A stretch of 64,000 nt of DNA, taken from assembly GCA_049520275.1 (NCBI GenBank), contig JBEKPY010000032.1, positions 26,277-90,276 of the forward strand. Reading direction: 5' to 3'. The notes beneath the pieces are model-generated. The model saw only the letters and a list, made by a program, of their open reading frames with translations, did not search any database and was not told where the DNA came from. Positions 3,415 through 63,803 of this stretch are shown here, in pieces. The translations under genes were made by a program, and so were the position numbers. The stretch comes from Bryobacteraceae bacterium. GTDB taxonomy: Bacteria; Acidobacteriota; Terriglobia; Bryobacterales; Bryobacteraceae. How positions within the stretch are numbered: the stretch's first letter is position 1; every line of letters begins with the position of its first letter.

Positions 3415-6400
3415 TCAGGAGTTGCCCATGCCGGCGATCAACGCGTCCAGTTCCGTTTGATCGAGCCGCGCGCCCGGAAAGTCGGACGGCGTATAGGCCG
3501 GCGAATCCGCTGTCCGGCAGCTATCCACGAGTGCGCCGAGGATGACGGTGTACCGTTGCGCCAGCCGCTCGATGGTGGCGCGATCGTGCATGTTCTTACT
3601 GAACGTCCACGTCATCGCGAGTTGTCCGGCAGTCACGATCCCGTTGATTTCGAGAACGTGCGACCGCCGGTTAGCGGAAGCTACCTCGGGACTGCTCAAT
3701 CCGAGGACGGGTTTCCATGCATCGCCGGCCGTTAGCACACGATCGGTCTGGCCCAGATAGTTAAAAAGCACCTCCGCGGCGGGTTGCGCCAGGACCTCGG
3801 CGTCGCGCCTGAGGTAGCGAGCCAGGCCATAGCCAAAACCTCGCAAAGGTATCGCGCGAAGCTGTTCCTTGACCGCCTTCAAAGCCTGCACCGGTGAAGC
3901 CCCGGATTCGCCGCGCAAAAGCACCGGATACAACGCCGTGAACCAACCGGCCGTTCTCGAGCAATCGAGATCGGGAAACAGGTCTTCGCGCCCGTGCCCT
4001 TCCATGTCCACCAGCAGCCCGGACGAGCCAGTCCATTCCATGAAGGTCAGCAAAAGGGCGGTCAGAAGAATATCGTCGATTCGTGTATTGAAGGCGCGGG
4101 GCGCTTCATGAAGCAGATCGTGCGTGCGGGACCGATCCAGAGAGCACTGCACGTCCGCAGCGGAGGCAAACGTGCCGCTGTCGGACGAGCCTGCGCGATC
4201 CTTCGGGATGGACGTTACCGGAGCCGCACACACATGCCTCCAGTAAGACAGCCCTTCGAAATCGGTCCGGCTGAATTCGTGCAGGCGCGACGACCATTCC
4301 ATGAAGGAGCTGGTCTTCGCCGGAAGCTCCGCGCCGCGGCACAGGGCGTACAGATCCTCCAGCAGGATTCGCCAGGAGACGCCGTCAATGGCCAGATGAT
4401 GCACCGCGACGAGCAGAAGCGATGGACCGCTTCCCGGTCGCCGGAATAGATGAACCCGGATCAGCGGCCCGTGGGCCAGATCCATGCCGCTCTGAATCTG
4501 GGCGGCGCGGCGCTCCACTTCCGAATCCGTGGCCACGTTCGACCAGGTGAAGGGGATCTCCGCGCCCGGCACATCGTATCGTTGTTCCCACTTCTCGCCG
4601 ATCTTGGCAAACCGCAGGCGAAGCGCGTCGTGGTGCTTCAACAACCCCTCCACGGCGAACTGCACCGCCTCCGGCGCCAGGTCCGGAGGGACTTCCAGCA
4701 TCACCGACTGGTTGAAGTGGTGCGGAGCCGCGAAGCTCTGCGAGAAGAACCACTCCTGCATGGGCGCAAGCGGCACGGCGCCCGTGACTGCACCTTGCTC
4801 CGCCACTACTGCCCGCGCGTCGACGGCCACGGCCGCCAGCTCCGCGATCGTCTGATGCTCGAAGAACTGCTGCGCGGACAACTTGATCCCCGCGTGGTTG
4901 GCACGAGCTACCGCCTGGATGATGAGAATCGAGTCGCCTCCGAGCTCGAAGAAGTTGTCGCGAATGCCGACCCGGTCGAGCCCCAACACTTCGGCCCAGA
5001 TGCGCGCCACACGCTCCTGAATTTCCGATTCGGGAGCGTCCCCGCCGCCACCAGCCGCCGCGGCCTCTCTGGGAGCGGGCAGAGCCTTACGGTCGATCTT
5101 GCCGTTGGCCGTCAGCGGCATGTCGTCCAAAACGACGAATACGGGAGGCACCATGAACTCGGGCAACCGGTTTTTCAGGTACTCGCGGAGATCCGCGGGC
5201 GTGACCGGCCCATCCACCGTCACATAGGCAGCCAGGCGTTTCTCCCCGGGCTGGTTCTCATGAACCACAACCACCGCATCGCGGATTCGGCGATGCTGCG
5301 CGAGCACCGACTCGATCTCACCCAGTTCGACGCGGTACCCGCGGATCTTTACCTGAGTGTCCTTGCGGCCAATCAACTCCAACTCTCCGTCCGGCAACCA
5401 CACACCCAGATCGCCGGTGCGGTAGAGCCGCTCCCCATCCTGGAATGGGTTTGGAACGAACGCCGTCTCCGTCTGGTCGGGACGATTCAGATATCCTCGC
5501 GCCAGGCCCACGCCTGCAATACAGATTTCGCCGATGCACCCTTCGGGAACCAGCTCCAGGTTTGCATCCAGCAAATAGATGGCGATGTTATCGATCGCCT
5601 TCCCGATCGGAATCCTCGCCGCATAGGAAGCGAGCGGGTCCACACGATGATGCGTCACGCAGACCGTCGCTTCGGTCGGCCCATAGGAGTTGTAATAAGC
5701 GATGTTCCTGGCGAAATCGCGCGCGTCGTCGACTTTGGCGTTGTCCCCCGCACTGACGATTCGCTTCACCGAATGCAGCTTGCCGCGATCCAGTGCGGCC
5801 AGGTACACGGGAGGCGCGGTGATGGTGGTCACGCCGTGCTTCTGAACCAGCTCCGAAAACTGTGCCGGGTCCTTGATCGCGGCGCGCGGGATGGTGACCA
5901 CGGTTCCTCCCGCCATCAATGGCACCAGGACCTCGAACAGGGAGGAATCGAAGCCGGCGGAATAGAATTGGGAAAAACGATCGGAGGCGTCGATCCCGAA
6001 CGCGGCAATATGATGCAGCGCCATGTTGACGAAGCCGCGGTGCTCCAGAATCACACCCTTGGGTTTGCCGGTCGAACCGGAGGTATAGATAATGTAGGCG
6101 GCGTCGTGAGGCTGGGCTGCTGGCGATGGATCGTCTGTGGACGTTTCGAGCGCGTCCAACTGAAGATCGAGCGCGAACATAGGCGTGGCATAGAACGCGC
6201 TCAACTGCGACATTTGCTCCGAGTGAATCAGCAGGACCCGCACACCGGCATCGTCGATCAGGAACTGAAGCCGTTCTTCCGGGTACTCGGGGTCCAGAGG
6301 GAGATAGACGCAACCGGCTTTCAGAACCGCCAGGAGCGCCGTAATCCACGATTCGGAAGCGTCCGATACGACACCCACCACATCGCCGGTCTGCAACCCA

Positions 6401-34666: not shown

Positions 34667-34874
34667 ACGCGGGTCGGCTGATCGTGAACTCGGCGTACCA
34701 GGGATTCCCTTGGGCGTGAATCGTAGAGTACTAAAGTTTTCACCTTACCCGACCGATCACAGAGTTGTTGATCAAATGCATGAGGCAGCCAACAGGAGGT
34801 CCGCGCTGGCTGAGTTCGATCCAGATCGCAAACGGAAGTCCTTCCACCACTAAGCCCGGACAGAACGAGAGAGT

Positions 34875-37452: not shown

Positions 37453-40400
37453 TCAGTCGGTGCCAGCCTTCGGCGCCGGCGGCGCTTTTTGCCTGGGCTC
37501 GGCCGCCGTTTTTCGTTTCTGAGACAGCCGGTAACGCGCGAGGAGCTCCTCGCGATTCTGGCGAAGGTCCATTCCGGACGGCGCGGCGGGATAAGGCTTG
37601 TCGCCCATCATCCCTTTCCACAGAATGCTGTTAAAGAGCGCGGGATCGACGCGATCCGCGTCCGAGAAGTCCATTCCCCTGGTGACTCGCGCCCAGTACT
37701 TCGCGTCGTGCGCCGGCTTCGGCGCCACCATGCCGGTGGGAGCGGGGGGCAGCGGCAGGGACGTATTGTAGAGAATCGGCGCGGGAGCGGGAGTAAAGCT
37801 CCACGGGCTTGGCGTGGTGTTAAAGATGTCGGCCATGGGCGCGGCGAGCGCGTCGTTCAGATTCATCGGCGGGAGGCCCAGAACCTCTTCGATGGTGCGC
37901 AGGAAGTTGATCGTATTGTACGGAGTGGAGACCAGTGCGCCTTGTTTCACCCAGGCGCCCGCCACGAATGCGATGCTGCGGTGCGAATCGACGTGGTCGC
38001 CGCCATCCTGCGCGTCGTCTTCAACTATGAAGATCAGCGTGCTGTTCGCGTACACGCTGCTGGCGATCTTTTGAACCAGCAGGCCCACCGCATAATCGTT
38101 GTCGGCCACCTCCAGATCCGGCGTATTCACGCCGTCAATCGCCCCCGGGCCTCCGGACCCGGTGGTGTAGTTTCCGGTGTGATCGTGCATCAGGCGAACC
38201 AGGGTCAGCGCCGGCAGATCCTCCGTGCTGCGTCCGGCGTGGTGGCCGTTGACATATCGGGCGTCGAAATCCCGCACCCATTCGGTGTAGCGCCAGTAAT
38301 CCGGAAGCGCGTTGTCGAAGCCGCGGAAGTACGGGTCGGTGAACGGGGCGAGGTCGGCATTCGCGGGAAAAGCCACCTGCGTGCGGGTTGCGAACGGATC
38401 GCGCAACACGGGTATGGCGTACCTGGACAGTGTGGGAGGCAGTTGATAGCGGGTTCCGTCCACAAAGAAGCCATAGTTGCGGACCCTGAGCCCCGCCCGC
38501 AGCGCGGCGTTCCATAAATAGCCGGTATTGATTTCGTTCTCCGGCCCATCCGGCGCGGACACATTGGTCTGGCCCGCCAGCGCATCCGGATCCTGTGGGG
38601 TCAGAGGATTGGCGGCCAGCCGCCCGGCAAGGGTGGGAATGGCCACGTTCACGTTGCGGTTCAGACCATCGGAATCCAGACTGGTGCCGCGGAGCGCGTA
38701 CGCCACCGGGTACTGGCGTTCCACCACGTCGGGGGCCTGCGCGGAGGTGCTCCACAGCCAGCCGTCATAGCTGACTTCGGCGGTGTCCAGGAAGTTGTCG
38801 AGGGTGACGAAGCTTCGCGCCAGGTTATGGAGATTCGGAGTGATGGCCTCTCCAAACTCGGTCAGATCGGGATCGCCATTGCCGATTCCGAGATCTCCCA
38901 AAACCTGGTCGTACGTCCGGTTTTCCTTGATGATGAAGATGACGTGTTTGACGCCTGCGCGCACGGCCGCCATCACCGCGGCGTCGCTGGCGCTCTCGGT
39001 GCCGGCGAAGTGGTTGTTCGCGGCCACCTGCTGGGTCAGCGTCGCCAGTTGCGCCGGTTCGGGGAGCGGGAAGCTCTGCAGACCGGCTTTGGTCAACTGA
39101 GGATTGTATTGATTCGATTCCATGCAGGTTTTCGACAACGGCGGCCCGTAGCCGCCATAGCAGAAGCCGGGATTCGGTCCCGTCGGCGACTTCCCATTGG
39201 CCGCGTACACGGATGCCGGGCTGAGCGGGCTGGCGCCGCCGGCGTGCACCACGCTCACTGAGTTCGGGTACCAGCCGGTGGGAATAAGACCAACTACATG
39301 GTCGCCGCTGTTGGTTCCGCCCAGCGCCACCACCGCGATACAGTTCAGGTTGCCATTGGTCACGTAGAGTTGCTTCTCGTCCGGCTCCGAGAGCGTTACG
39401 CTGTTGGGGTTCGCGCCCTTGTACTGCGCCACCGGCGAGGGCACTACCGACGCGACTACCGGGATCGTCTCGACGACCGCGTTCTTCACGGTGTCGATGA
39501 CGTCAACGGTATCCGATTGGTCTTCGGCGACATACAGGAAAGTCTGGGCGGCGTTCAGCGTCATCCTGTTCGGTTGTCCGGTCACGTGGATCCGGGCCGC
39601 CACCGCTGGCGTGCCACCCAGATTAACGACGTCGATCTCGCGGTCGCGAATGCTGGATACGTACGCTGTCGCGCTCTGTCCTTTACCCTTCACAGCCACC
39701 CAGAACGGGTATTCGCCGCCCGGAACTCCTTGCTGCGGGTTGCTCGCGCTCTTGCCGGGGCGCAGGTCGAGTTCCGCCTGCTTCAACCAGGCGCCGTAGC
39801 CTCCGGTGAATACCGTGATCGAGTCGTTGTAGTAATTCACGACTACCAGCGTCTGGCCATCGCTCGAAATAGCCACGCCGGCGGCGCAGGCCGACACGCT
39901 AAGTCCCACGCCCCCCGCGCTGTGGCCCAGAGGAAGCGGAGAACTCGGGTCCTCCGCCCAGGTTGCCGGGGCGCTCGGGGTGGCGGGGCTCAGCGAATAA
40001 ATGTGAAGGTTGTCGTTGGGGCCGCCGGCCACATAAAAATGTGTGCCGGACGGATCGAAGACAATCCCGTTGTAAGTATTTGGAACCTGCAACACCTGCG
40101 TCTGGGTTGGAGTCAGATTCGAGATGTCGTAGATGAACACGTACTCATTCGAGTCCGGGGGATGCCATGGCGGCGTTGCTGCCGATGTCACCGCCGGCAC
40201 GGTGTCGGTGTTATAAACGCGATTGAACCCGCTGGTCAGGACCAGCAGGGTCTTGCCGTTTGGACTCACCACGGTGCTGACCGCCTGTCCGGCCAGCCAG
40301 TCGGGCTTGTCGGCCAGGCCGGGGTTCAACGGTTGGAACGCCGACCCTGTGGGCGCCAGCGGCGTGATCTGCTGGCCCATATTGGGCAGGAACTGGGGGC

Positions 40401-40494
40401 TGGGCTGGGCCTGGGCCAGCACGCCCGAGATGACCAGCGCAAGCGTCGGACCGGCCGCTCGAAACGAGAAACGCCGATAAGCTTCCTTTGTCAT
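37453..40494 (-). CDS. Secreted bifunctional-architecture protein: N-terminal YVTN-type beta-propeller + C-terminal phosphoesterase family (phospholipase C/AcpA acid-phosphatase-like)
   Basis: 1013 aa; signal peptide; repeated propeller blades (LYVTNGNLN, FLYVAEDQSDTVDVID); phosphoesterase signature VKHVIFIIKENRTYDQVLG and DDAQDGGDHVDSHRS. RBS AAGGAG before the ATG at 40494. Confidence 0.75.
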   Translation of the reverse strand: MTKEAYRRFSFRAAGPTLALVISGVLAQAQPSPQFLPNMGQQITPLAPTGSAFQPLNPGLADKPDWLAGQAVSTVVSPNGKTLLVLTSGFNRVYNTDTVPAVTSAATPPWHPPDSNEYVFIYDISNLTPTQTQVLQVPNTYNGIVFDPSGTHFYVAGGPNDNLHIYSLSPATPSAPATWAEDPSSPLPLGHSAGGVGLSVSACAAGVAISSDGQTLVVVNYYNDSITVFTGGYGAWLKQAELDLRPGKSASNPQQGVPGGEYPFWVAVKGKGQSATAYVSSIRDREIDVVNLGGTPAVAARIHVTGQPNRMTLNAAQTFLYVAEDQSDTVDVIDTVKNAVVETIPVVASVVPSPVAQYKGANPNSVTLSEPDEKQLYVTNGNLNCIAVVALGGTNSGDHVVGLIPTGWYPNSVSVVHAGGASPLSPASVYAANGKSPTGPNPGFCYGGYGPPLSKTCMESNQYNPQLTKAGLQSFPLPEPAQLATLTQQVAANNHFAGTESASDAAVMAAVRAGVKHVIFIIKENRTYDQVLGDLGIGNGDPDLTEFGEAITPNLHNLARSFVTLDNFLDTAEVSYDGWLWSTSAQAPDVVERQYPVAYALRGTSLDSDGLNRNVNVAIPTLAGRLAANPLTPQDPDALAGQTNVSAPDGPENEINTGYLWNAALRAGLRVRNYGFFVDGTRYQLPPTLSRYAIPVLRDPFATRTQVAFPANADLAPFTDPYFRGFDNALPDYWRYTEWVRDFDARYVNGHHAGRSTEDLPALTLVRLMHDHTGNYTTGSGGPGAIDGVNTPDLEVADNDYAVGLLVQKIASSVYANSTLIFIVEDDAQDGGDHVDSHRSIAFVAGAWVKQGALVSTPYNTINFLRTIEEVLGLPPMNLNDALAAPMADIFNTTPSPWSFTPAPAPILYNTSLPLPPAPTGMVAPKPAHDAKYWARVTRGMDFSDADRVDPALFNSILWKGMMGDKPYPAAPSGMDLRQNREELLARYRLSQKRKTAAEPRQKAPPAPKAGTD

Positions 40495-40584
40495 TGCTGA
40501 GGCTCCTTATGGGTGGCGGAGTTCTGTGCAGCGGTTACACTGGCTGATCCCGCCCTGGTGGGTTGGACCTGGCTGGGCCGGAGA

Positions 40585-40628
40585 CCCAGCACGGTGTCTG
40601 GGGACCGCTTCAAGTAGAGTTATCGGCC
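40585..40628. promoter_or_regulatory. Conserved ~40-nt upstream motif, copy 1 (~100 nt upstream of the YVTN/phosphoesterase gene)
   Basis: cagcacggtgtctggggaccgcttcaagtagagttatcggc. Copy 2 matches at 43596..43636 with 34/41 identities, including an invariant CTTCAAGTAGAG-TATCGGC core. Confidence 0.45.
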
Positions 40629-40759
40629 TGGTCCTCTGGTACCAGTACCTCGGCCCCGTAGAATTCTCAAAGAACAAGAACGACGTTGCCGGAGGGCGTC
40701 ACATTAGCGTTGCCGAGGTCCAGGAATGGCAGCGCGGAGAAAGCCCGGAAAGACAAAAG

Positions 40760-42073
40760 TCAGTTCATCAGGTCGGCGGAGTGCGGGTCAATCGCCTGGT
40801 TCGCCAGCTTTACGAAAGTCCCAAGGGGGCAGTCGAAAGTCGCATTGCCGGCGCTGCAACCGGGGATGAAGACCGGGGCGCTGGGCGGCGGCGCAGCGAG
40901 GGTCAGGGGCGTGAGATTGCGCAACTGGTCCAGAGTCTGCCCGACGTAAGAGGCCCGGACGATGTACTCGCCAGTGTTTTGGGACTGACGGAGTTGGAGC
41001 ACGAGAGCGCCGCCCGGAGAGCAGAAGTCTTTCTGATATCCCGGCAGAAGCCAGTCGAGGTGGAACAGGCCGGCTAATCCGGTGATGTCGGTGTCCGAAG
41101 CGATCAGCACGATCACTTTCGTCGACGGATTCCCCAGCGAGCCCGTCAGCGTATTCCCGGTGGCTGACTGGACCATGGATCGAACGATGTGCGAAGCCAG
41201 ATTGGAACTCTGCACTCTATCCAGATAGGGCGTGCGGAACTCCAGATCGAGGACCAGGTTAGGAACGCGAGAGGTCTGGCTAACGCCGTCGGCAGTCAAC
41301 TGGCCCCACCCGGCCGGCAGCCCATCGGCGTACTCCATAAGGAAAGGATCGATGGCCAGGGCAACGTCGGTCAGCCCTCCGAGGTCGACCGGTGCGCCGC
41401 CCGTCCCGGCTGTGACGGCAAATGGAATCGCGGTGACGTCGAACTGATTTGCCGGGGCTGCGGGCGCCGGAGTCTCGCTCGCGGGATAATTCAACAGGAC
41501 CGAGCGCGTGAGGGCGATTTCCGGGGCCCAGGCGGAGGCCAGCAGTTGCAGATTGCCGCCGACACGACCGTTCACGGCCGCAATCGCCATCCGCGAATCC
41601 AGCAGCGCGACGCCGGCGCCCACCGGATTGAACAACGGATCGATGGCCGTCGTCGGGGTCAGGGATTGGACGTTGGCCGGGGCCGCCGGGAGAAAGCCCG
41701 CCCAGAAGTGTTGCGCGGAGTCAACGGTCCGCTGGATCGCGTTGGCATGAAAGAAAACGAAGCTGGCGTCGGCGGAGTCGTTGCCGGTCAGCAGTCCTTC
41801 ATCAGTGAGCCAGAGACGGTAGTAGCCGCCGAGGATGGTCTCCAGTTTCTCACCGTTGGGGGTCAGAATGCCCGGTAGAGGGCCGACGCCGAAATCCGGG
41901 TAGTCTTGCACGGAGAAGGTGTTGAGGACGCCGGATGGCGCGACCGGAGACCGCACGTTATGACGGCCGAAAACGATCACCTGCTTGAGCTGGGTGTCAT
42001 CGACGGGCTGAGCTGCCAGCCCGAAGACGCAGACAAGAACGGGAAGGAAGAGCCGAAGGGAATGGATTGTCAT
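40760..42073 (-). CDS. Histidine acid phosphatase (branch 2, phytase/AppA-Agp-like), secreted
   Basis: 437 aa; signal peptide; RHG motif VIVFGRHNVRSP; C-terminal Cys pattern PGCSAGNATFDCPLG. Translationally coupled to the upstream paralogue. Confidence 0.75.
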   Translation of the reverse strand: MTIHSLRLFLPVLVCVFGLAAQPVDDTQLKQVIVFGRHNVRSPVAPSGVLNTFSVQDYPDFGVGPLPGILTPNGEKLETILGGYYRLWLTDEGLLTGNDSADASFVFFHANAIQRTVDSAQHFWAGFLPAAPANVQSLTPTTAIDPLFNPVGAGVALLDSRMAIAAVNGRVGGNLQLLASAWAPEIALTRSVLLNYPASETPAPAAPANQFDVTAIPFAVTAGTGGAPVDLGGLTDVALAIDPFLMEYADGLPAGWGQLTADGVSQTSRVPNLVLDLEFRTPYLDRVQSSNLASHIVRSMVQSATGNTLTGSLGNPSTKVIVLIASDTDITGLAGLFHLDWLLPGYQKDFCSPGGALVLQLRQSQNTGEYIVRASYVGQTLDQLRNLTPLTLAAPPPSAPVFIPGCSAGNATFDCPLGTFVKLANQAIDPHSADLMN

Positions 42074-42075
42074 AC

Positions 42076-43500
42076 TTAGTTCACCAGGTCGGCGGATTGC
42101 GGGTCGATTACGTGGTTCGCTATCGTCACGAAGGTCCCGAGGGGACAGTCGAAGTTGGCATTATCGACGCTGCAACCGGGGATGAACACCGGGGCGCTGG
42201 GCGGCGGCGCAGCGAGCGTCAGGGCGGTCTGATTGCGTAGCTGGTCGAGCGTCTGAGAGACGTAGGAGGCGCGGACGATATACTCCCCGGTGCTCTGCGA
42301 CTGGCGGAGCTCGAACACCAACGCGCCGCCCGGACCGCAGACGTCGGCTTCGTAACCCGGCAGAAGCCAGTCGAGATGGAACAGGCCGGCGAGTCCGGTG
42401 ATATTGGTGTTCGAACCCGTTAGTACGATCGCTTTGGTCGCCGGACTTCCCAGCGCGCCTTTCATCGCATTCCCGGTGGCCGCCTGAACCATGGAGCGCA
42501 CTATGTGGGAGGCCACATTCGAACTCTGCACTCGGGCCAGATAGGGGGTGCGGTATTCCAGATCGAGGATGACGTTGTACAAGCGGAAGGTCTGGTTGAT
42601 ACTGCCAACGGTCAACTGGCCCCAACCGGCCTCCGCAGCCGGCAGTCCATCCGCGTACTCCATGACGAAAGGATCGATAGCGCCGCCAACATCGGCCAGC
42701 CCTCCAAGGTCCACCGGCAAAGTGGTGCTTCCGGCCGCAACGCCGATGGGAATGGAGGTGACGTCGATCCTGCCTGTCGGGGTCGCCGGGACCGGAGTCT
42801 GGCTGACGGGATAGTTGAACAAAATGGAGCGCGTGAGGGCGAGTTCGGGCGCCCAGGCGGAGGCCAGGGACTGTGGATTAGCGCCGAGGCGTCCGTTCAC
42901 GGCCGCGACCGCCCTGCGGTAATCGAGCAGCGCGACTCCCGCGTCCACCGGATCGAACAGCGGGTCGATGGCCGGTGGGCTGTAGGAATTGACGTTTACA
43001 GTGGCCGCCGGGAGCATGCCGGCCGCGAAGGCTTGCGCGGTGCCAACAATGAGCGGAGTCCCATTGGCCCGGAGGTATACGAAGGCGGCATCGGCTGCGT
43101 CATTACCGGTCAGCAGTCCCTCCTGGGTGAGCCACAGTCGGAAATACCCGCCGAGGATAGTCTCATCCGTGCCACCGTTGTGGGTGAGGACGCTGATACC
43201 CGGCTCGAGGAACGCCGGGTAGGGCAGCGCGGAGAAGGCGTCGAGGGCGGTGTTCGGCAAAATAGGAGTCCGCACACCATGACGGCCGAAGATAATAACC
43301 TGCTTGAGCTGGGTATCGTCTGCGGGCCGCGCCGTGGGGTTGGACAAGCGTGGCTCGCCGGTGAGCGTGGGGCTCAGCGGCGTAGTCGCTGGGCCCATAT
43401 TGAGCGCGGGTTGTGCGTAGGCCGCCGCGCCGGCGATAATTAACGCAAGCGTCAGGCCCGCCGATGAGAGCGGAAAACGCTCGCAAACTTTTTCTGCCAT
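42076..43500 (-). CDS. Histidine acid phosphatase paralogue, secreted
   Basis: Track ORF 42076..43641. Likely start ATG 43500 (MAEKVCERFPLSSAGLTLALIIAGAAAYA), preceded by AGGAGA. RHG motif VIIFGRHGVRTP. About 55 % identical to the downstream paralogue, including the C-terminal Cys motif. Confidence 0.75.
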   Translation of the reverse strand: MAEKVCERFPLSSAGLTLALIIAGAAAYAQPALNMGPATTPLSPTLTGEPRLSNPTARPADDTQLKQVIIFGRHGVRTPILPNTALDAFSALPYPAFLEPGISVLTHNGGTDETILGGYFRLWLTQEGLLTGNDAADAAFVYLRANGTPLIVGTAQAFAAGMLPAATVNVNSYSPPAIDPLFDPVDAGVALLDYRRAVAAVNGRLGANPQSLASAWAPELALTRSILFNYPVSQTPVPATPTGRIDVTSIPIGVAAGSTTLPVDLGGLADVGGAIDPFVMEYADGLPAAEAGWGQLTVGSINQTFRLYNVILDLEYRTPYLARVQSSNVASHIVRSMVQAATGNAMKGALGSPATKAIVLTGSNTNITGLAGLFHLDWLLPGYEADVCGPGGALVFELRQSQSTGEYIVRASYVSQTLDQLRNQTALTLAAPPPSAPVFIPGCSVDNANFDCPLGTFVTIANHVIDPQSADLVN

Positions 43501-43595
43501 TTGCGGGAGTCTCCTTAGTCTGTGAAGTCCTGCGTGCGGCGGTTGCCCGGGGTCAATCTGAAGCGAAGCGATCGGCTTTCGACAGATGACGGAAG

Positions 43596-43636
43596 CCAGA
43601 GCGGTCCCAGGGGCCGCCTCAAGTAGAGCTATCGGC
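43596..43636. promoter_or_regulatory. Conserved upstream motif, copy 2 (~100 nt upstream of the tandem acid-phosphatase operon)
   Basis: ccagagcggtcccaggggccgcctcaagtagagctatcggc; see copy 1. Confidence 0.45.
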
Positions 43637-43861
43637 TTCATGCATTCGCACCATTACACCGGGGCGCCAGCCGAAGGCGGCATGATCGGGAAGCACCGGT
43701 GGCGCTATTGGCGGCCACACCCAATCAAACGGGGTCAACCTGCCGCGCGTGCCGGTGAAGATGCCGGATGGCGCCATCGAGCGGCGGATCAGGTCCTCGA
43801 TCGATCCTCGCTGAGATGCTTGATTAGCGATCTTCGACGAATGGCTCGCACGACGCCACCC

Positions 43862-44004
43862 TCGCTAGAGCCAATACTGTTCAGTTTGCGCGGGAGGGAC
43901 ACGCGGCGCAAGCCGCGTTCGTTCGGTGCTGTGCAAAAACGCGGCTTGCGCCGCGTGTCCGATTGGCGGACGAAGGCCAAAGTGAACAGTATTGGTCGCT
44001 AGAG
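43862..44004. mobile_element. MITE-like nested palindromic element: 9-bp direct repeats (TCGCTAGAG) flanking 13-bp terminal inverted repeats (CCAATACTGTTCA / TGAACAGTATTGG) around a perfect 23-bp-arm inner palindrome; the inner hairpin is an intrinsic terminator
   Basis: DR 43862-43870 and 43996-44004; TIR 43871-43883 and 43983-43995; inner arms 43897-43919 and 43938-43960 (GGACACGCGGCGCAAGCCGCGTT). On the minus strand this reads CGCGGC-GCAA-GCCGCG followed by TTTTT, right after the secretin stop (TAG at 43999-44001, inside the right DR). Confidence 0.5.
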
Positions 44005-45678
44005 CAGCGAGATCGGCTTTGTTTCCGTGCCCGTCAGGAGCGCGGGCGTGGGGAGATCGGTGGGCGGAAGGTTCAACAGCCGCGGCTTGATCACCAGCAG
44101 CGCGCCGGCGCGGTCGGTGTTGCGCGTGTTGTTCCCGAGCAGCCGGCCCAGCACCGGCACGTTCGCGAGGCCGGCGATGCCGCTGAAACTGGCCGCGTCG
44201 GTCCTGCTTATCAGCCCCGTGAGCACCGCCCATTCGCCCTCGTGAAGACGGACGGTGGATTGGAATTTCCGGTTGTTGATTGCCGGTATGCCGCTGGGCT
44301 GCACCGCCCCGAGCAGTGTGTAGGAGGCCTCCACCTCCAGGGTCACCTCTTCTGTTCCGTGAATATGCGGGGTGATTTTCAGCTCGAAGCCGAGATCCTG
44401 GAACTGAATGGTGGGCGGAGGCACATAGGACGCGGCCGCCGTACCGGTGCCGGACGCCGAGGTGGTGAAGGTACTGCTGATCAGCGGATACTTGCTGCCC
44501 ACGTGCAACAACGCAGGCTGGCCCTGGGACGCCGTCAGATGCGCCCGGTACACGGTGCTGGTAATGGCCTTTGTCACGGTGGCAAACAGGTTCGCCTGGG
44601 CAATGCCGATCCCGAGGATGGTGGCGCCGCCGCCAAACGTGAGGAAACTGGAGAAGCCGGACGGAATCGCGGTCGTGGCCACGTAATTCGCGATCGTCCC
44701 GAAGTCGATCAGGGGGAACGAAGACGGCAGCCCCGCGCCCCACTGGAGCGAATCCGAGTCGTCAATGTCCAGCAATTCCACTTCGAGGTCCACCTGCGGG
44801 TGAGCCCGCAGCAGGCTTTCCAGCAGGGCCTGGGCCGGGCGAACCTTGGAGATCTGATCGCGCAGCAGCACCATGCGGTTCGTGGTGTCCACCATCACGC
44901 GCTGGATGTCCATGGTGGAGCGCACGGCGTTGACCATTTCCTGAAGTTCCTGGGTGTTGACCGTCTCCGGGATGGGAATAGTCACCGAGACGGTTCGTTC
45001 GAACTCCTTGCGCTTGGCGGGAGTGTCGGCGGCGACAAAGACCAGCCGGTCGCCCACGGGGATGACAAACGTCCCGGTGGCGTCTTCCAGAGCGCGCAGC
45101 GCAGTCCGGTAGTCCACCTGTTGCATCTGGAACCGGGTAGGGGGAGACGGAGAGTACTCCGAGTCGAACACCACGAGCAGGCCAAAGGCCTTCGCCACCT
45201 GCTCAAACAGAGACTTGCCGTCGCCCCGGACATCGAAGTCCCGTAGGGCCGGTGTGGCTTTTAGTTCGGTGGGAGGCAGGGGTTTGCGGGCTTCGGCGGC
45301 GTCACTGGCGGTGAGTTCGCCAAACAGGCTGTCATCGAGACCGGCATCCGGTTTGGCCTCCTTCCCGATAGCGTCGGCTTTGTCTTTCAGGCCGGGGTCC
45401 AGTTTGGCGACGGATTCGAAATCGCGTATTCGCAGAGCGTACGCCGGATTGGCTGGGTCCAGTGCATATGCATGTGAATAAAGGACATAGGCGCGAGCTA
45501 CATCGCCTTTTCGCTCGGCCTTCGCGGCTGCCCGGGCCAGTTGGGAGGCGGCCTCGCTGGCGTCGCTGGCGGCCGCGAAACATCCCGCAAAACAGGCCGC
45601 AAACACGACCAGGGCAATGCAAGGGCGAAACCCCACAACAGGCATGACGGCGCCCGGAGCCGGAACGTGGACAAGCAA
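43999..45678 (-). CDS. Secretin-family outer-membrane protein (GspD/PilQ/CpaC-like) with N-terminal TPR-like region
   Basis: 559 aa; C-terminal secretin block (GEWAVLTGLISRTDAASFSGIAGLANVPVLGRLLGNNTRNTDRAGALLVIKPRLL); hydrophobic N-terminus with Cys (possible lipobox). An internal start at 45645 (MPVVGF...) is also possible. Confidence 0.7.
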   Translation of the reverse strand: MLVHVPAPGAVMPVVGFRPCIALVVFAACFAGCFAAASDASEAASQLARAAAKAERKGDVARAYVLYSHAYALDPANPAYALRIRDFESVAKLDPGLKDKADAIGKEAKPDAGLDDSLFGELTASDAAEARKPLPPTELKATPALRDFDVRGDGKSLFEQVAKAFGLLVVFDSEYSPSPPTRFQMQQVDYRTALRALEDATGTFVIPVGDRLVFVAADTPAKRKEFERTVSVTIPIPETVNTQELQEMVNAVRSTMDIQRVMVDTTNRMVLLRDQISKVRPAQALLESLLRAHPQVDLEVELLDIDDSDSLQWGAGLPSSFPLIDFGTIANYVATTAIPSGFSSFLTFGGGATILGIGIAQANLFATVTKAITSTVYRAHLTASQGQPALLHVGSKYPLISSTFTTSASGTGTAAASYVPPPTIQFQDLGFELKITPHIHGTEEVTLEVEASYTLLGAVQPSGIPAINNRKFQSTVRLHEGEWAVLTGLISRTDAASFSGIAGLANVPVLGRLLGNNTRNTDRAGALLVIKPRLLNLPPTDLPTPALLTGTETKPISLL

Positions 45679-45735
45679 GTGACCGCGGGATGTGTATAAA
45701 CAATCTGTCGCAAGGAGCCGATGTAAAGCTCAGGC

Positions 45736-53354: not shown

Positions 53355-54474
53355 CTAAGCCCAGGCGGGTTCTCTAAGCTTCGCCTGTTCTGATTGGCTG
53401 CGGAAACTGAAATAGGCCTGAAGGCCTGATTGATCGGTCCTGGTCTCAGTCATGATCCTGTGGGATACGCGCTGAGTCACTTCCCGCAGGTTTTCGGGCC
53501 GGCTGGCCTCGTCCGTCAGAATGATGGTGAAAAATATGGAGGTATTTCCGATCCAGTCGGTACCGATATCGTAGCCGATGCGCACAACCTCGGCAGCCAG
53601 GGCCCTCGCGGCCCTTTCGACACCGGCCGCGATGCTGCGCTGGTTCACAAGACCGCCAGGGACAATCGACACAAGTTCATTATCCCGCGTTTTCGCGCGG
53701 ACTGTCTCTCGGTCGGTTCTAGCTGGGGGGCAACCCGAGGTACTGGTGTATCCACCTTGTGGCTTCCGCCTTGGCGACCTCAATACCAATGCCCAGTCCT
53801 GCTTGGCCTAGCTTGCTGCCAAGCTGCCTTAGCCAGGTTGCGGTTCGGCGCCCCAGGGTTTTTGAGCCACCGTTTGCCGAATCTTCTTTAACCGCGGACT
53901 GCAAACTTGCTATCTCAGAGTCCAGTACACCCAGACCGCTGAGGGCGTTGGCGAGTGAGGCCCAACTCCCTCGTTCGATTGTAATACTGTGGACTTGCGC
54001 GAAATCCCGCGAGGCGATCACGTTGTTCCCCCCGAAGATATACGTAATCACGCTCTGATCGACCTTCTCTTTGGGTAGCTCGTCAAAACTGTCAGTCACC
54101 AGTCCGAGATCGTCCTTCAGTTCAAGAGCAAGACGTAAGACTCTGGTTCGGATGGTGTCGATCAGCCCCACGAAAGCCGAGCCGGCGATCTCCTGCCACG
54201 CTCTGCTCAGACCGTATTGTCCTCCGAAAAAGGACCACTCATACCTGAGGGTCAGATTTGGCGGCCAATCGACGATGAAGCACGAGTCCACACCAACACC
54301 TTCGTAGGAGGCTATAGGCTGAAAGAGGATCGCCGAATCTGCGAAGTGCCTGTGCTGCTGTTCCAACACTATTGATGGTAATGGCTGGTCACTTATCTTC
54401 GATCCAAATCGGCCCACGAAGCACCCCCTCGCTATTGCAACCGTTTCTTCACGGCGTATGCCAATACCAAGCAC
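53355..54474 (-). CDS. Hypothetical protein, apparently frameshifted (two overlapping ORFs 53355..53789 and 53719..54474); lower GC
   Basis: Two same-strand ORFs overlap by 70 nt with coding-like composition; no recognisable domain. Confidence 0.35.
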
Positions 54475-60023: not shown

Positions 60024-60752
60024 TTAGGTGACGTACACCTCATTTCCGAATTTCGGTTTGCGCCCTCGCTTCTGCGGTCGAACCGGCCGCCCGAGACATA
60101 CCTCCATCCGTTCCAGAAACTCGACGTCCCCAATGGGCCGGCCCGTCTCGTTCGCCTGCCGGAATCGCTCAACGAACCCGGCATCACGCACGCCGAGTTC
60201 CAGGACTTCGGCCCAGCTCCGCCTTGTGTAGTTGTCTCTCCAGCGCGCCATATCGAGCGTAACCGGCGTGTTGCGTCCCTCAACATGCGTCGCAGCGCTG
60301 GACCACGGCCAGGCGAGCGCACAACTCACCATACCCGCCCGAACCGGGTTCTGCTCCACATAACACAGCGCGTTCCACAAATGCCGATTGTCGAGTGGGC
60401 ACGACCGGTAACGCCCCTGCCAAAGCTGCCCGGTCTGTCCCCGTTGTACGTGAAGCCATCGTGAGCACCCATGATTGGTGAGGCGGAATGTCCACGCCAT
60501 CGAGGCGAGGCCGTCTGGCTCGCACACAACGTGGTAGTGGTTGCCCATGAGGCAGTAACCCAGGATTCTCAACCCGTACTGCTGGCTGTACTTCTCCAGA
60601 AGCTGCAGAAAGATGCGGCGATCCAGGTCGGAGAAAAATACGTCCTCGCAATGGTTTCCGCGCTGCACAACATGGACGGGCACGCCGGGAACCACAAGCC
60701 GGGAGATATGGGGCATAACCTCGATGTGCCCTCGCGCGGGCTTCCCTCTCAC
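60024..60752 (-). CDS. REP-associated tyrosine transposase (RAYT) / IS200-family Y1 HuH transposase
   Basis: 242 aa; HuH motif GNHYHVV, downstream QGRY catalytic Tyr region, VHVVQRGN N-terminal motif; ORF 3' end reads through the left TIR. Confidence 0.75.
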   Translation of the reverse strand: MRGKPARGHIEVMPHISRLVVPGVPVHVVQRGNHCEDVFFSDLDRRIFLQLLEKYSQQYGLRILGYCLMGNHYHVVCEPDGLASMAWTFRLTNHGCSRWLHVQRGQTGQLWQGRYRSCPLDNRHLWNALCYVEQNPVRAGMVSCALAWPWSSAATHVEGRNTPVTLDMARWRDNYTRRSWAEVLELGVRDAGFVERFRQANETGRPIGDVEFLERMEVCLGRPVRPQKRGRKPKFGNEVYVT

Positions 60753-62876: not shown

Positions 62877-63803
62877 ATGATTATGCGAGCAATACTTCTC
62901 TCTCTTCTATGCGCCGCCGTGGCCATCGGTGAGATCCATCACAATCCGGGCAGCACAACGCCGGTGCCCCACGAGAAGTACATCCACGTTGTCAGCGAGG
63001 CCGATTCGCCGATCCAGCAGACTTACATCAAGGCCAGGGACGGCCTGTATATCGCCGCCGCGATTCGCAAGCCGAAAGGCGACGGCCGCTACCCCGCCAT
63101 CATCATGTTTCACGGCGCACCCGGCGGACGGGGCATGGAGCAACTGGTGGGATGGTCGAGGGGCGACTTCGGCGGGCCGGTGTGGGAACGGTTCCTGCAG
63201 GAAGGATATGTCGTCGTGGTGGCCGACTATCGGGGCGGCGACTGGAATCTCATGTCCGTGCCGTCGACGAACGGAATCGTTACTTCCATCGACGACGGGC
63301 TGGCGGCGATCGACTATGTCAGGTCGCTGCCGTACGTCGATCCGGGCCGTCTCAATCTCTACGGGGTCAGCCTGGGCGGCAACCTGGTGATGCAACTGGT
63401 CTCCCGCGTGACGGTGAACTCGGCCATCGTAGGCGCGCCCGCGGCGCTGTGGTTTCTGGGCATGACCTGGCCGGCCGGCGCGCCGTCCGGGCCGGATCGC
63501 GTCAAGGGCATGAAGCCCGACCCCGAGATTTCGCGCAGGAACATCGAGCCCATCCACACCCCGATTTTGATTCTGCAGGGGACCGCGGACGGCCTGATGC
63601 CCGTAGCCATCATGCTGCACGACGCGCTCGCCGCGGCCGGCAAGTCCGTACGCATGGAGGTCTACGAGAACGGCTACCACGACTTCTGCCTCGGGCCGCA
63701 GGGCCAGAAGCGCCCCGACCTGCCGCACGGCGAGATTCTGATGGACGCGGCTCTGGACGCGCTGGAGAAGTCCGTTCTCTTCGTGAAGGGCAAGCTGCAG
63801 TAA
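62877..63803 (+). CDS. Secreted alpha/beta-hydrolase (dienelactone hydrolase / S9 peptidase-like fold)
   Basis: Signal peptide MIMRAILLSLLCAAVAIG; nucleophile elbow GVSLGG; 308 aa. Confidence 0.7.
   Translation: MIMRAILLSLLCAAVAIGEIHHNPGSTTPVPHEKYIHVVSEADSPIQQTYIKARDGLYIAAAIRKPKGDGRYPAIIMFHGAPGGRGMEQLVGWSRGDFGGPVWERFLQEGYVVVVADYRGGDWNLMSVPSTNGIVTSIDDGLAAIDYVRSLPYVDPGRLNLYGVSLGGNLVMQLVSRVTVNSAIVGAPAALWFLGMTWPAGAPSGPDRVKGMKPDPEISRRNIEPIHTPILILQGTADGLMPVAIMLHDALAAAGKSVRMEVYENGYHDFCLGPQGQKRPDLPHGEILMDAALDALEKSVLFVKGKLQ

What the first reader, a model, noticed from the sequence alone, without database searches (positions are those of the whole stretch)
40585..43636. Shared ~40-nt motif upstream of two separate secreted-phosphatase transcription units
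The same sequence (core CTTCAAGTAGAG[C/T]TATCGGC, 19/20 identical; extended 34/41) occurs ~100 nt upstream of the start codons of the YVTN/PLC-like gene and of the tandem histidine-acid-phosphatase operon, in the same orientation relative to each gene. It does not resemble an enterobacterial Pho box, so it may be the lineage-specific operator or promoter of a phosphate-starvation regulon, or a conserved 5'-UTR RNA element.
Basis: seen in the sequence. Interest (0 to 1): 0.55.

Follow-up and report, generated by a model that had tools for sequence, protein, structure and literature searches.

The report
Duplicated promoter-leader of secreted phosphatase genes
Two soil-acidobacterial phosphatase gene units carry the same conserved ~45-base upstream block because they share one anciently duplicated "front end" (promoter, leader and signal peptide); the block most likely holds the promoter, whose -10 element looks like that of flagellar-type sigma-28 factors and not like a phosphate box.

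Summary
On the gene (minus) strand, GCCGATA[A/G]CTCTACTTGA[A/G]GCGG occurs exactly twice in the window, at 40605-40627 and 43614-43636. The copies are 21/23 identical (39/49 extended) and end 110 and 113 nt before the start codons of gene A (beta-propeller/phosphoesterase) and the B-C operon (AppA-like histidine phosphatases).

The copies are not independent. A and B are homologous from about -155 to +170, covering promoter, leader and signal peptide. B is an A-like N-terminus fused to a C-like catalytic domain.

The block is also conserved upstream of the B orthologue of a related Bryobacteraceae lineage (41/49), while the flanks have decayed. This argues for purifying selection.

Its most deeply conserved part, GCCGATAG/A, is found in 4 of 5 B-type upstream regions. 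It equals the -10 consensus of sigma-28 (FliA/WhiG) promoters. A weak -35-like TAnTGkTa lies 12 nt upstream, and a GC-rich hairpin follows the predicted start.

I found no Pho box, no Rfam match and no convincing RNA structure. No further copies turned up in about 190 kb of related DNA or in public collections, so a regulon is untested.

Best reading: the core promoter plus leader start of a duplicated 5' module. This is ordinary in kind and modestly interesting.

The parts
40605..40627 (-). Core motif, copy A: GCCGATAACTCTACTTGAAGCGG, upstream of gene A
43614..43636 (-). Core motif, copy B: GCCGATAGCTCTACTTGAGGCGG, upstream of the B-C operon
40620..40627 (-). GCCGATAA: 8/8 match to the sigma-28 (FliA/WhiG) -10 consensus. 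The predicted transcription start is about 40611-40613.
   Evidence: consensus from PMC8325347 and PMC12784957
43629..43636 (-). GCCGATAG: 7/8 match to the sigma-28 -10 consensus. The same variant occurs in the E. coli FliA-dependent flxA promoter. The predicted start is about 43620-43622.
40640..40647 (-). Weak -35-like octamer TACTGGTA, 12 nt upstream of the -10 (consensus TAAAGTTT)
43649..43656 (-). Weak -35-like octamer TAATGGTG, 12 nt upstream of the -10
40591..40608 (-). GC-rich hairpin (GCGGT...ACCGT) starting a few nt after the predicted start, copy A
43600..43618 (-). GC-rich hairpin (GGCGG...CCGCT) starting a few nt after the predicted start, copy B
40572..40590 (-). Second leader hairpin, copy A (GCTGGG...CCCAGC). 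A hairpin occupies the same position with a different sequence in copy B (43574-43597) and in L010.
40526..40536 (-). Second conserved leader block AACCGCTGCAC. Its CCGC can pair with the GCGG at the 3' end of the core in a predicted long-range helix.
43534..43544 (-). Second conserved leader block AACCGCCGCAC, copy B
40495..40612 (-). Predicted 5' leader of gene A (about 118 nt), including the Shine-Dalgarno AAGGAG at 40503-40508 and a conserved AACTCC at 40518-40523
   Evidence: the start position is inferred
43501..43621 (-). Predicted 5' leader of the B-C operon (about 121 nt), including the Shine-Dalgarno AAGGAG at 43511-43516
   Evidence: the start position is inferred
37453..40494 (-). 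Gene A: secreted beta-propeller (YncE/Lactonase type) plus PF04185 phosphoesterase, 1013 aa. Codons 1-49 (40348-40494) are homologous to the N-terminus of B.
42076..43500 (-). Gene B: chimeric histidine acid phosphatase/phytase, 474 aa. Residues 1-45 are A-like (signal peptide plus NMG..TPL). Residues 57-474 are 69% identical to C.
40760..42073 (-). Gene C: histidine acid phosphatase/phytase, 437 aa, with its own different signal peptide. It starts 2 nt after the stop of B.

Best explanation
The shared block is the core promoter and the first ~35 nt of the transcript of a 5' module made of promoter, ~120-nt leader, Shine-Dalgarno site and signal peptide. This module was duplicated long ago and now heads both gene A and the B-C operon.

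Within the block, GCCGATA(A/G) is the -10 element, of the type read by sigma-28 (FliA/SigD/WhiG-family, group 3) sigma factors. A weak -35-like TAnTGkTa sits 12 nt upstream.

Transcription is predicted to start about 8 nt downstream of the -10, inside the conserved CTCTACT|TGA. The conserved GCGG that follows opens a GC-rich 5'-terminal hairpin. Such a hairpin would be expected to stabilise the mRNA or tune its translation.

Shown:
- The two copies exist and are significant.
- The homology extends from about -155 to +170.
- The block is conserved in an orthologous lineage.
- GCCGATAG is retained in four lineages.
- The -10 is identical to the sigma-28 consensus.

Inferred:
- RNA polymerase with a sigma-28-family factor uses it.
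- The position of the start site.
- The role of the hairpin.
- Any link to phosphate.
For: - Two copies only, with 0 expected by chance. The local alignment of the two upstream regions is 39/49 and far above shuffles.
- Similarity between the A and B regions runs from about -155 to +170. Identity peaks at the core (0.79-0.83 in 24-nt windows), at a leader block near -46 to -25, at the SD, and in the signal-peptide codons.
- B residues 1-45 align to A residues 1-49. B residues 57-474 are 69% identical to C.
- L010 is a related lineage whose B is 76% identical. It carries the block at -136, 41/49 identical to window B and 35/45 to window A. The rest of the upstream regions is at noise level. Window A shares states with L010_B that window B lacks, so the duplication predates the split of these lineages and both copies stayed constrained.
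- GCCGATAG is the only 8-mer shared by 4 of 5 B-type upstream regions. The chance of any 8-mer of the block recurring in both distant lineages is about 8e-4.
- The published sigma-28 consensus is -35 TAAA, -10 GCCGATAA (PMC8325347; PMC12784957). GCCGATAG occurs in the FliA-dependent E. coli flxA promoter (PMC4203485).
- In register in four sequences: TACTGGTA, TAATGGTG, TACTGTAA and TATTGTTA, each followed by N12 and GCCGATAR.
- A PWM built from E. coli FliA sites gives -10 scores of 14.8 and 11.8 bits and totals of 14.6 and 14.4 bits. These totals fall within the range of real E. coli sites, 13.9-28.3.
- The block has no dyad or direct-repeat symmetry, as expected for a promoter and not for a dimeric operator (read directly from the sequence).
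- A hairpin follows within a few nt of the predicted start in all four sequences.
- Bryobacter and Paludibaculum genomes carry motility-class genes although the strains are described as non-motile (PMC8841776). A FliA-family sigma in the family is therefore plausible.
Against: - The -35 match is weak (4-5 of 8), and the spacer is 12 nt against the canonical 11.
- The total PWM scores are not significant on their own: about 3 sites of at least 14 bits are expected by chance in 128 kb.
- The apparent excess of 12-nt spacers among PWM hits is confounded by codon periodicity.
- I could not check whether the source genome encodes a FliA/WhiG-family sigma.
- No transcription start data exist.
- Sigma-28 promoters do not normally need 15 conserved nt downstream of the -10, so an extra function (operator or RNA) must be added to explain CTCTACTTGARGCGG.
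- Secreted phosphatases are not typical sigma-28 targets.
- One B-type gene (L041) and two A-type genes with their own upstream regions (L006_A, L039_A) lack the element.
Confidence: 0.45

Rival explanations
1. The block is an operator for a lineage-specific transcription factor, possibly the local phosphate-starvation regulator. It overlaps or flanks a promoter whose own elements are too weak to recognise. The factor binds the 23-nt core and switches both units on or off together.
For: - A contiguous 23-nt conservation is longer than a -10 element needs.
- Both units encode phosphate-scavenging enzymes.
- In L010 the unit lies next to polyphosphate kinase.
- An additional element, GAATGCAT, is shared by three B-type upstream regions.
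Against: - The core has no conserved dyad or direct-repeat structure.
- There are no Pho-box-like 7+4+7 repeats above chance in any of 11 upstream regions.
- No response regulator or other candidate factor is encoded nearby.
- No third site was found in about 190 kb.
- The element is absent from more distant orthologues that should be in the same regulon.
Confidence: 0.2
2. The block is transcribed and acts as RNA. It would be the 5' part of a conserved ~120-nt leader that controls stability or translation of the phosphatase mRNAs. One route is a long-range helix between GCGG at the 3' end of the core and CCGC about 75 nt downstream. Another is an ACTYC segment that can pair with the Shine-Dalgarno sequence.
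For: - RNAalifold on four leaders predicts the GCGG/CCGC helix, with 87.5% of cells paired and two pairs showing changes on both sides.
- The leader block AACCGCYGCAC and an ACTYC motif 12-15 nt before the SD are conserved.
- Leader length is nearly constant (133-142 nt from the core 5' end to the ATG).
- Hairpins sit at the same positions with different sequences.
Against: - No Rfam family matches, even at E up to 10.
- Folding energies are ordinary, z -0.2 to -1.2.
- Only four sequences are available, and the structure was derived from them, so the pair counts are biased.
- The local hairpins do not use the same alignment columns in the three close copies.
- The AT-rich half of the core is predicted to be unpaired.
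- If the sigma-28-type -10 is real, most of the core lies upstream of the start and is not in the RNA.
Confidence: 0.15
3. It is a promoter, but for a different sigma factor (housekeeping sigma-70 type or an ECF sigma). The identity of GCCGATAA with the sigma-28 -10 would then be coincidental.
For: - In L012 the same region reads TTGTTA-N17-TAGATT, an acceptable sigma-70-type promoter (sequence).
- The pattern nGTAnT-N18-CGATA loosely resembles ECF-type promoters (my reading of alignment A2).
- The sigma-28 PWM totals are within chance expectation.
Against: - The sigma-70 consensus scan finds nothing in 40300-44100.
- TAGCTC and TAACTC lack the conserved T at the last position of a -10 hexamer.
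- The deeply conserved unit is exactly the 8-mer GCCGATAG, including the GCC that a sigma-70 or ECF -10 would not need.
Confidence: 0.12
4. The similarity is a neutral leftover of the duplication, or of a short gene-conversion tract between the two paralogous 5' regions. It has no function of its own.
For: - The two regions are homologous overall.
- At about 55-60% background identity, a 22/24 run somewhere in about 200 positions is not vanishingly rare (my estimate is about 0.1).
- Directly repeated copies 3 kb apart could undergo gene conversion.
Against: - The same block is conserved in the orthologous upstream region of a different lineage (41/49) whose flanks are at noise level.
- GCCGATAG persists in two still more distant lineages.
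- Window A shares derived or ancestral states with L010_B and not with window B, which argues against recent conversion.
Confidence: 0.07

Closest known systems
Sigma-28 (FliA / SigD / WhiG) dependent promoters, e.g. E. coli tar, flxA and fliC, P. aeruginosa fliC, and WhiG targets in Streptomyces and Rubrobacter
   Same: - The -10 octamer is GCCGATAA (copy A, 8/8) or GCCGATAG (copy B, L010, L012, L006). The G variant also occurs at E. coli flxA.
- A T-A-x-x-G-x-T-type -35 octamer lies about one helical turn upstream.
- The architecture is asymmetric.
- Non-flagellar regulons are known for this sigma family (WhiG in sporulation, type IV pili in Rubrobacter; PMC8325347).
   Different: - The -35 is weak (TAnT in place of TAAA).
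- The spacer between octamers is 12 nt, not 11.
- Fifteen further nt downstream of the -10 are conserved.
- The targets are secreted phosphatases.
- No sigma-28 gene, start site or sigma dependence has been shown for this organism.
Pho boxes (PhoB/PhoP binding sites) of phosphate-starvation promoters
   Same: It lies upstream of phosphate-scavenging enzyme genes, in a fixed orientation and at a similar distance in two units.
   Different: - There are no 7-bp direct repeats with 11-bp periodicity. Scores against CTGTCAT-N4-CTGTCAY are at chance in all 11 upstream regions tested.
- No PhoB/PhoR genes are nearby.
- The regulon-wide distribution is untested.
Structured 5' leaders and 5'-terminal stabilising stem-loops (established examples: E. 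coli ompA leader, B. subtilis aprE leader; cited from my own knowledge)
   Same: - The predicted leader is long (about 120 nt).
- A GC-rich hairpin begins within a few nt of the predicted 5' end in all four sequences.
- There are conserved leader blocks near the ribosome-binding site.
   Different: - There is no experimental 5' end.
- Folding energies are not unusual.
- There is no Rfam family.
- Covariation rests on four sequences.
E. coli appA (AppA phytase/acid phosphatase) regulation (from my own knowledge: alternative-sigma and starvation control of the appCBA operon)
   Same: B and C are AppA-family enzymes (NF007552). Control by an alternative sigma factor and not by a Pho box alone has precedent for this enzyme family.
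   Different: In E. coli the sigma factor is RpoS, acting with AppY. The promoter sequence is unrelated.

Membership tests
Sigma-28 (FliA/WhiG)-type promoter | -10 element GCCGATAA | tested here: met
   Copy A is GCCGATAA (8/8). Copy B, L010_B, L012_B and L006_B are GCCGATAG (7/8). Consensus from PMC8325347 and PMC12784957. The G variant occurs at E. coli flxA.
Sigma-28 (FliA/WhiG)-type promoter | -35 element TAAA(GTTT) about 15 nt (11 nt between octamers) upstream of the -10 | tested here: inconclusive
   TACTGGTA, TAATGGTG, TACTGTAA and TATTGTTA lie at a 12-nt spacer and match 4-5 of 8. The -35 PWM scores are -0.2 to 3.6 bits. Some real E. coli FliA sites have equally poor -35 elements.
Sigma-28 (FliA/WhiG)-type promoter | Overall score clearly above the genomic background | tested here: inconclusive
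   Totals are 14.4-14.6 bits, against 13.9-28.3 for E. coli sites. About 3 such hits are expected by chance in the window.
Sigma-28 (FliA/WhiG)-type promoter | A FliA/WhiG-family sigma factor encoded in the same genome | not testable with these tools
   There is no sigma gene in the window or the loci. The only indirect hint is motility-class genes in Bryobacter and Paludibaculum genomes (PMC8841776).
Sigma-28 (FliA/WhiG)-type promoter | Transcription start 7-9 nt downstream of the -10, dependent on the sigma factor | not testable with these tools
   No transcript data. The predicted starts are 40611-40613 and 43620-43622.
Pho box / PhoB-type operator | Two or more 7-bp direct repeats spaced by 4 bp (11-bp period), placed at the -35 position | tested here: not met
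   The best matches to CTGTCAT-N4-CTGTCAY in 11 phosphatase upstream regions are no better than shuffles. No periodic repeat is visible in the block.
Pho box / PhoB-type operator | Recurs upstream of several phosphate-starvation genes of the genome | not testable with these tools
   Only 64 kb of the source genome is available. It holds no other phosphate genes and no third copy.
Known cis-regulatory RNA family (riboswitch or leader in Rfam) | Match to a curated covariance model | tested here: not met
   There is no hit at the gathering threshold in the window. The local E-value scans returned only chance-level hits, E 0.23 and 6.3, to unrelated families.
Structured RNA element (unclassified) | Conserved secondary structure supported by covariation and by stability above shuffles | tested here: inconclusive
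   z-scores are -0.2 to -1.2. Five of 16 predicted pairs show double changes, but on only 4 sequences and on a structure derived from them.
Dispersed repeat (REP/MITE-like) | Many copies in the genome and in relatives, independent of gene starts | tested here: not met
   There are two copies in the window. In 596 Gb of genomes, the JGI metagenomes and IMG/VR there are only 8, 13 and 3 scattered hits, in unrelated taxa and in coding sequence where inspected.

The most novel reading that the evidence does not exclude
The conserved block and the ~120-nt leader behind it together form an undescribed cis-regulatory RNA leader of Bryobacteraceae phosphate-scavenging genes. Its features would be the GCGG/CCGC long-range helix, the AACCGCYGCAC block and the anti-Shine-Dalgarno-like ACTYC. 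It would sense a phosphorus-related signal. Alternatively, a FliA/WhiG-family sigma factor has been co-opted in this family to drive secreted phytase and phosphoesterase genes, coupling phosphorus scavenging to a motility or lifestyle switch.
Probability: 0.12. Interest if true: 0.65.

Novelty: new member of a known kind. Interest (0 to 1): 0.3.

Why it matters
Almost nothing is known about promoters and gene regulation in Acidobacteriota, one of the most abundant soil phyla. These genes (phytase-type and PLC/AcpA-type phosphatases) are candidates for organic-phosphorus turnover in soil.

If the sigma-28-type reading holds, it gives a concrete, testable promoter model for Bryobacteraceae. It would also be another case of a flagellar-type sigma factor controlling non-flagellar genes.

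The finding also shows how a whole 5' module (promoter, leader and signal peptide) can be copied onto another enzyme. That is a simple route to co-regulation and co-secretion.

It does not so far reveal a new kind of element or a phosphate regulon.

Tried and rejected
- **Rfam.** The whole window at the gathering threshold, and both upstream regions at E up to 10, gave nothing meaningful.
- **Sigma-70 consensus scan of 40300-44100.** No site.
- **Sigma-54 (TGGCAC-N5-TTGC), IHF, Fur and CRP/NtcA-type patterns.** Checked by eye on the aligned sequences; none fits in more than one copy.
- **Enterobacterial Pho box scoring in 11 upstream regions.** At chance.
- **Public collection scans with GCCGATANNTCNACTTGANGCNG.**
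  - There were 8 hits in genomes, 13 in metagenomes and 3 in viral contigs (the viral scan used a slightly shorter pattern).
  - All were in unrelated taxa and, where inspected (genome and metagenome hits), inside coding sequence; the three viral hits were not read. The counts are at or below chance expectation.
  - The source organism's own contigs were not returned, so these collections do not contain it. The scans are therefore not a genome-wide test.
- **Protein-based search of viral contigs.** No locus.
- **nhmmer with a 3-sequence profile over the window and 12 related loci.** No further copy. There was only a weak partial second match inside the B leader (43562-43576, GCCGATCGCTTCGCT).
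- **Orthologue footprinting.**
  - C-type phosphatase genes (L004, L008, L036-L038) lack the block.
  - So do an A-type gene at 72% identity (L039), L006_A and one B-type gene (L041).
- **Antisense ORF.** The motif reads ASSR(A/V)IG in the same frame in both copies, but L010 has a stop 10 codons later, so it is not coding.
- **Upstream ORF overlapping the A start codon.** Not conserved in B (read directly from the sequence).
- **Excess of 12-nt spacers among sigma-28 PWM hits.** At first this looked like support. It turned out to follow a 3-nt periodicity (spacers 9, 12, 15), meaning a coding-sequence artefact, so I do not use it.
- **Block 4 (ATTGACC...) as an alternative promoter.** No -10 at any sensible spacing.


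Full report
**What is there**

None is expected in shuffles.

All three genes concerned lie on the minus strand:
- A is at 37453-40494. It encodes a 1013-aa Lactonase/YVTN-type beta-propeller with a PF04185 phosphoesterase domain. NCBI names homologues [quoted passage not shown].
- B is at 42076-43500 (474 aa).
- C is at 40760-42073 (437 aa). Both B and C are His_Phos_2 / AppA-family phytase-acid phosphatases, and they are separated by 2 nt.

Read on the gene strand, the core is GCCGATA[A/G]CTCTACTTGA[A/G]GCGG, 21/23 identical. Its 3' end lies 110 nt (A) and 113 nt (B) before the ATG. The best local alignment of the two upstream regions is 39/49, score 44, against a shuffle maximum of 27. The only correction is that the 20-mers are 18/20 identical, not 19/20.

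**Source organism**

The proteins are exact matches to soil-metagenome contigs. Their relatives are labelled Bryobacteraceae, Paludibaculum or Acidobacteriia. The nearest relatives in the databases are only about 70-76% identical in protein sequence, so few close upstream regions are available.

**The two copies are paralogous, not independent**

- A global alignment of the A and B regions shows similarity from about -155 to +170. Identity peaks at the core, at a leader block (AACCGCYGCAC, about -46 to -25), at the Shine-Dalgarno region, and in the first ~45 codons.
- B residues 1-45 (signal peptide plus NMG..TPL) align to A residues 1-49.
- B residues 57-474 are 69% identical to C, which has a different signal peptide.
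- B is therefore a chimera: an A-type 5' module (promoter, leader, signal peptide) joined to a C-type catalytic domain.
- The same A-type N-terminus is found on B-type genes in other lineages (L006, L012, P0100). It is strikingly conserved across the whole A family. The fusion is therefore old.

**Conservation elsewhere**

I fetched related loci through exact-protein look-ups.

- In L010, B is 76% identical and the operon B-C-C'-A lies downstream of polyphosphate kinase. The block sits at -136 of B and is 41/49 identical to window B and 35/45 to window A. The remaining upstream sequence is at noise level.
- Window A shares several states with L010_B that window B lacks. The duplication therefore predates the split of these lineages, and both copies have been maintained.
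- At greater distance only the 5' octamer survives. GCCGATAG is present upstream of L012_B (-142) and L006_B (-71). It is the only 8-mer shared by 4 of 5 B-type upstream regions, and the simulated chance of such sharing is about 8e-4.
- C-type genes, two A-type genes with their own upstream regions, and one B-type gene (L041) lack the element.

**What the conserved octamer is**

GCCGATAA is the established -10 consensus of sigma-28 (FliA/SigD/WhiG) promoters, with -35 TAAA (PMC8325347; PMC12784957). In P. aeruginosa fliC the -10 spans -15 to -8.

The table of 52 FliA-bound sites in E. coli (PMC4203485) shows the format TAAAGTTT-N11-GCCGATAA. It includes GCCGATAG at the strongly FliA-dependent flxA promoter, and several real sites have poor -35 elements.

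In register, the four Bryobacteraceae sequences read as follows:

| Sequence | -35-like octamer | Spacer | -10 |
|---|---|---|---|
| window A | TACTGGTA | N12 | GCCGATAA |
| window B | TAATGGTG | N12 | GCCGATAG |
| L010_B | TACTGTAA | N12 | GCCGATAG |
| L012_B | TATTGTTA | N12 | GCCGATAG |

A PWM built from the 23 strongest E. coli sites gave the two window copies -10 scores of 14.8 and 11.8 bits and totals of 14.6 and 14.4 bits. These totals sit at the low end of real E. coli sites (13.9-28.3). About three such totals are expected by chance in 128 kb, so the PWM alone does not establish the case.

The argument rests on three coincidences. The phylogenetically most conserved unit is exactly the sigma-28 -10 octamer. 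It sits at the 5' edge of the block. A T-A-x-x-G-x-T octamer lies one helical turn upstream.

An apparent preference for 12-nt spacers among PWM hits proved to be a codon-periodicity artefact and is not used.

The two best PWM hits in the window are other intergenic sites: 34732, TAAAGTTT-N12-ACCGATCAC, and 45697. Two hits of at least 19 bits compare with 0.15 expected, P about 0.01. This hints that such promoters exist in this organism.

I could not test whether the genome encodes a FliA-family sigma. Published comparative genomics reports motility-class genes in Bryobacter and Paludibaculum genomes despite non-motile descriptions (PMC8841776).

**Mechanistic model**

- RNA polymerase with a group-3, sigma-28-type factor binds the weak -35 and the strong -10.
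- By analogy with P. aeruginosa fliC, transcription starts about 8 nt after the -10. That falls inside CTCTACT|TGA, at about 40611-40613 and 43620-43622.
- The transcript begins with GA(A/G)GCGG, which opens a GC-rich hairpin in all four sequences.
- A ~120-nt leader follows, with a second hairpin, the AACCGCYGCAC block, and an ACTYC segment 12-15 nt before AAGGAG.
- Conservation of the 15 nt after the -10 is not explained by sigma-28 recognition. It implies an added function, either an overlapping operator or the 5' end of the RNA.

**Rivals**

- **Operator or Pho box.** The block has no dyad or periodic repeats. Pho-box scoring is at chance in 11 upstream regions. No regulator is encoded nearby.
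- **RNA element.**
  - There is no Rfam match, and fold z-scores are only -0.2 to -1.2.
  - RNAalifold does predict a GCGG/CCGC long-range helix with two double changes. This rests on four sequences and on a structure derived from them.
- **Another sigma factor.** The sigma-70 scan is negative.
- **Neutral remnant or gene conversion.** This is contradicted by the orthologous conservation.
- **Antisense coding.** Excluded by a stop codon in L010.

**Regulon question**

No third copy exists in the window or in about 127 kb of related loci.

Scans of 596 Gb of genomes, of the JGI metagenome collection and of IMG/VR with a degenerate core gave only scattered hits in unrelated taxa. The genome and metagenome hits, which I inspected, lie in coding sequence. 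Those collections did not return the source organism's own contigs, so they do not test its genome.

The window contains no other phosphate-related genes. The idea of a phosphate-starvation regulon is therefore neither supported nor refuted.

**Verdict**

This is a real, selected cis element. It is best explained as the core promoter (sigma-28-type -10) plus the leader start of an anciently duplicated 5' module shared by two phosphatase units. It is a new member of a known kind, and interest is modest.

Noticed in passing
window 43868-43998: A ~130-nt near-perfect palindrome lies immediately after the stop of the secretin gene and about 235 nt upstream of motif copy B. Its outer arms are CCAATACTGTTCA/TGAACAGTATTGG and its inner 20-nt arms are GACACGCGGCGCAAGCCGCG. 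The RNA fold is -76.8 kcal/mol, z = -9.5. A related 20-mer (2 mismatches) follows the stop of the gene ending at 63803. It may be a REP-like or terminator-like repeated element.
   Followed up: partly
window 37453-40494 and 42076-43500; proteins P0122-P0240: The ~1000-aa beta-propeller/phosphoesterase family has an unusually conserved signal peptide across Bryobacteraceae: M[TI]REVHERFPLSAAGLTLALVISGALAHAQ, then LPNMGQQITPLAP. The same N-terminus is grafted onto B-type histidine phosphatases in several lineages. The first codons are also conserved at the DNA level (GAAGTTCAC, CGTTTYCCGCT). This could reflect a special export route or an RNA-level constraint.
   Followed up: partly
window 3415-30111: A large hybrid NRPS-PKS biosynthetic cluster occupies the first half of the window. 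It includes a 3763-aa megasynthase (KS, KR, ACP, aminotransferase, C, A, PCP), 1694-aa and 1097-aa PKS proteins, a 1291-aa NRPS module, a CmlA-like diiron beta-hydroxylase, an ornithine cyclodeaminase and a PLP enzyme.
   Followed up: partly
window 34732-34760 (+) and 45697-45725 (+): These are the two best matches in the window to an E. coli FliA (sigma-28) PWM. TAAAGTTT-N12-ACCGATCAC lies 115 nt upstream of a DUF697 gene. TAAACAAT-N12-GCCGATGTA lies between the secretin gene and an AAA-ATPase gene. Two hits of at least 19 bits compare with 0.15 expected. The second may instead be a ribosome-binding region.
   Followed up: partly
window 43562-43576 (-): A second, degenerate GCCGAT-type segment (GCCGATCGCTTCGCT) lies inside the B leader, 60 nt downstream of the core. 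It resembles the L012_B version (GCCGATAGATTCGCT) more than the core does. It is either chance or a small internal duplication.
   Followed up: no
window 43640-43647 (-); L010 5421-5428; L006 about 5951-5958: GAATGCAT, which contains the palindrome ATGCAT, is shared by three B-type upstream regions. It lies upstream of GCCGATAG in window B and L010, and downstream of it in L006. It is absent from copy A. It may be a B-specific site.
   Followed up: no
L038 650-678: A sigma-28-like match, TAAGGTTC-N12-GCCGATCAG, ends 6 nt before the probable true ATG of a C-type phosphatase gene. If real, this would imply a leaderless transcript. The score is 15.4 bits, which is not significant alone.
   Followed up: no
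window 53719-54474 (-) and 60024-60752 (-): An AbiTii-domain protein (abortive-infection family) and an IS200/Y1-type transposase are present, in a lower-GC stretch (about 0.60) of the window.
   Followed up: no
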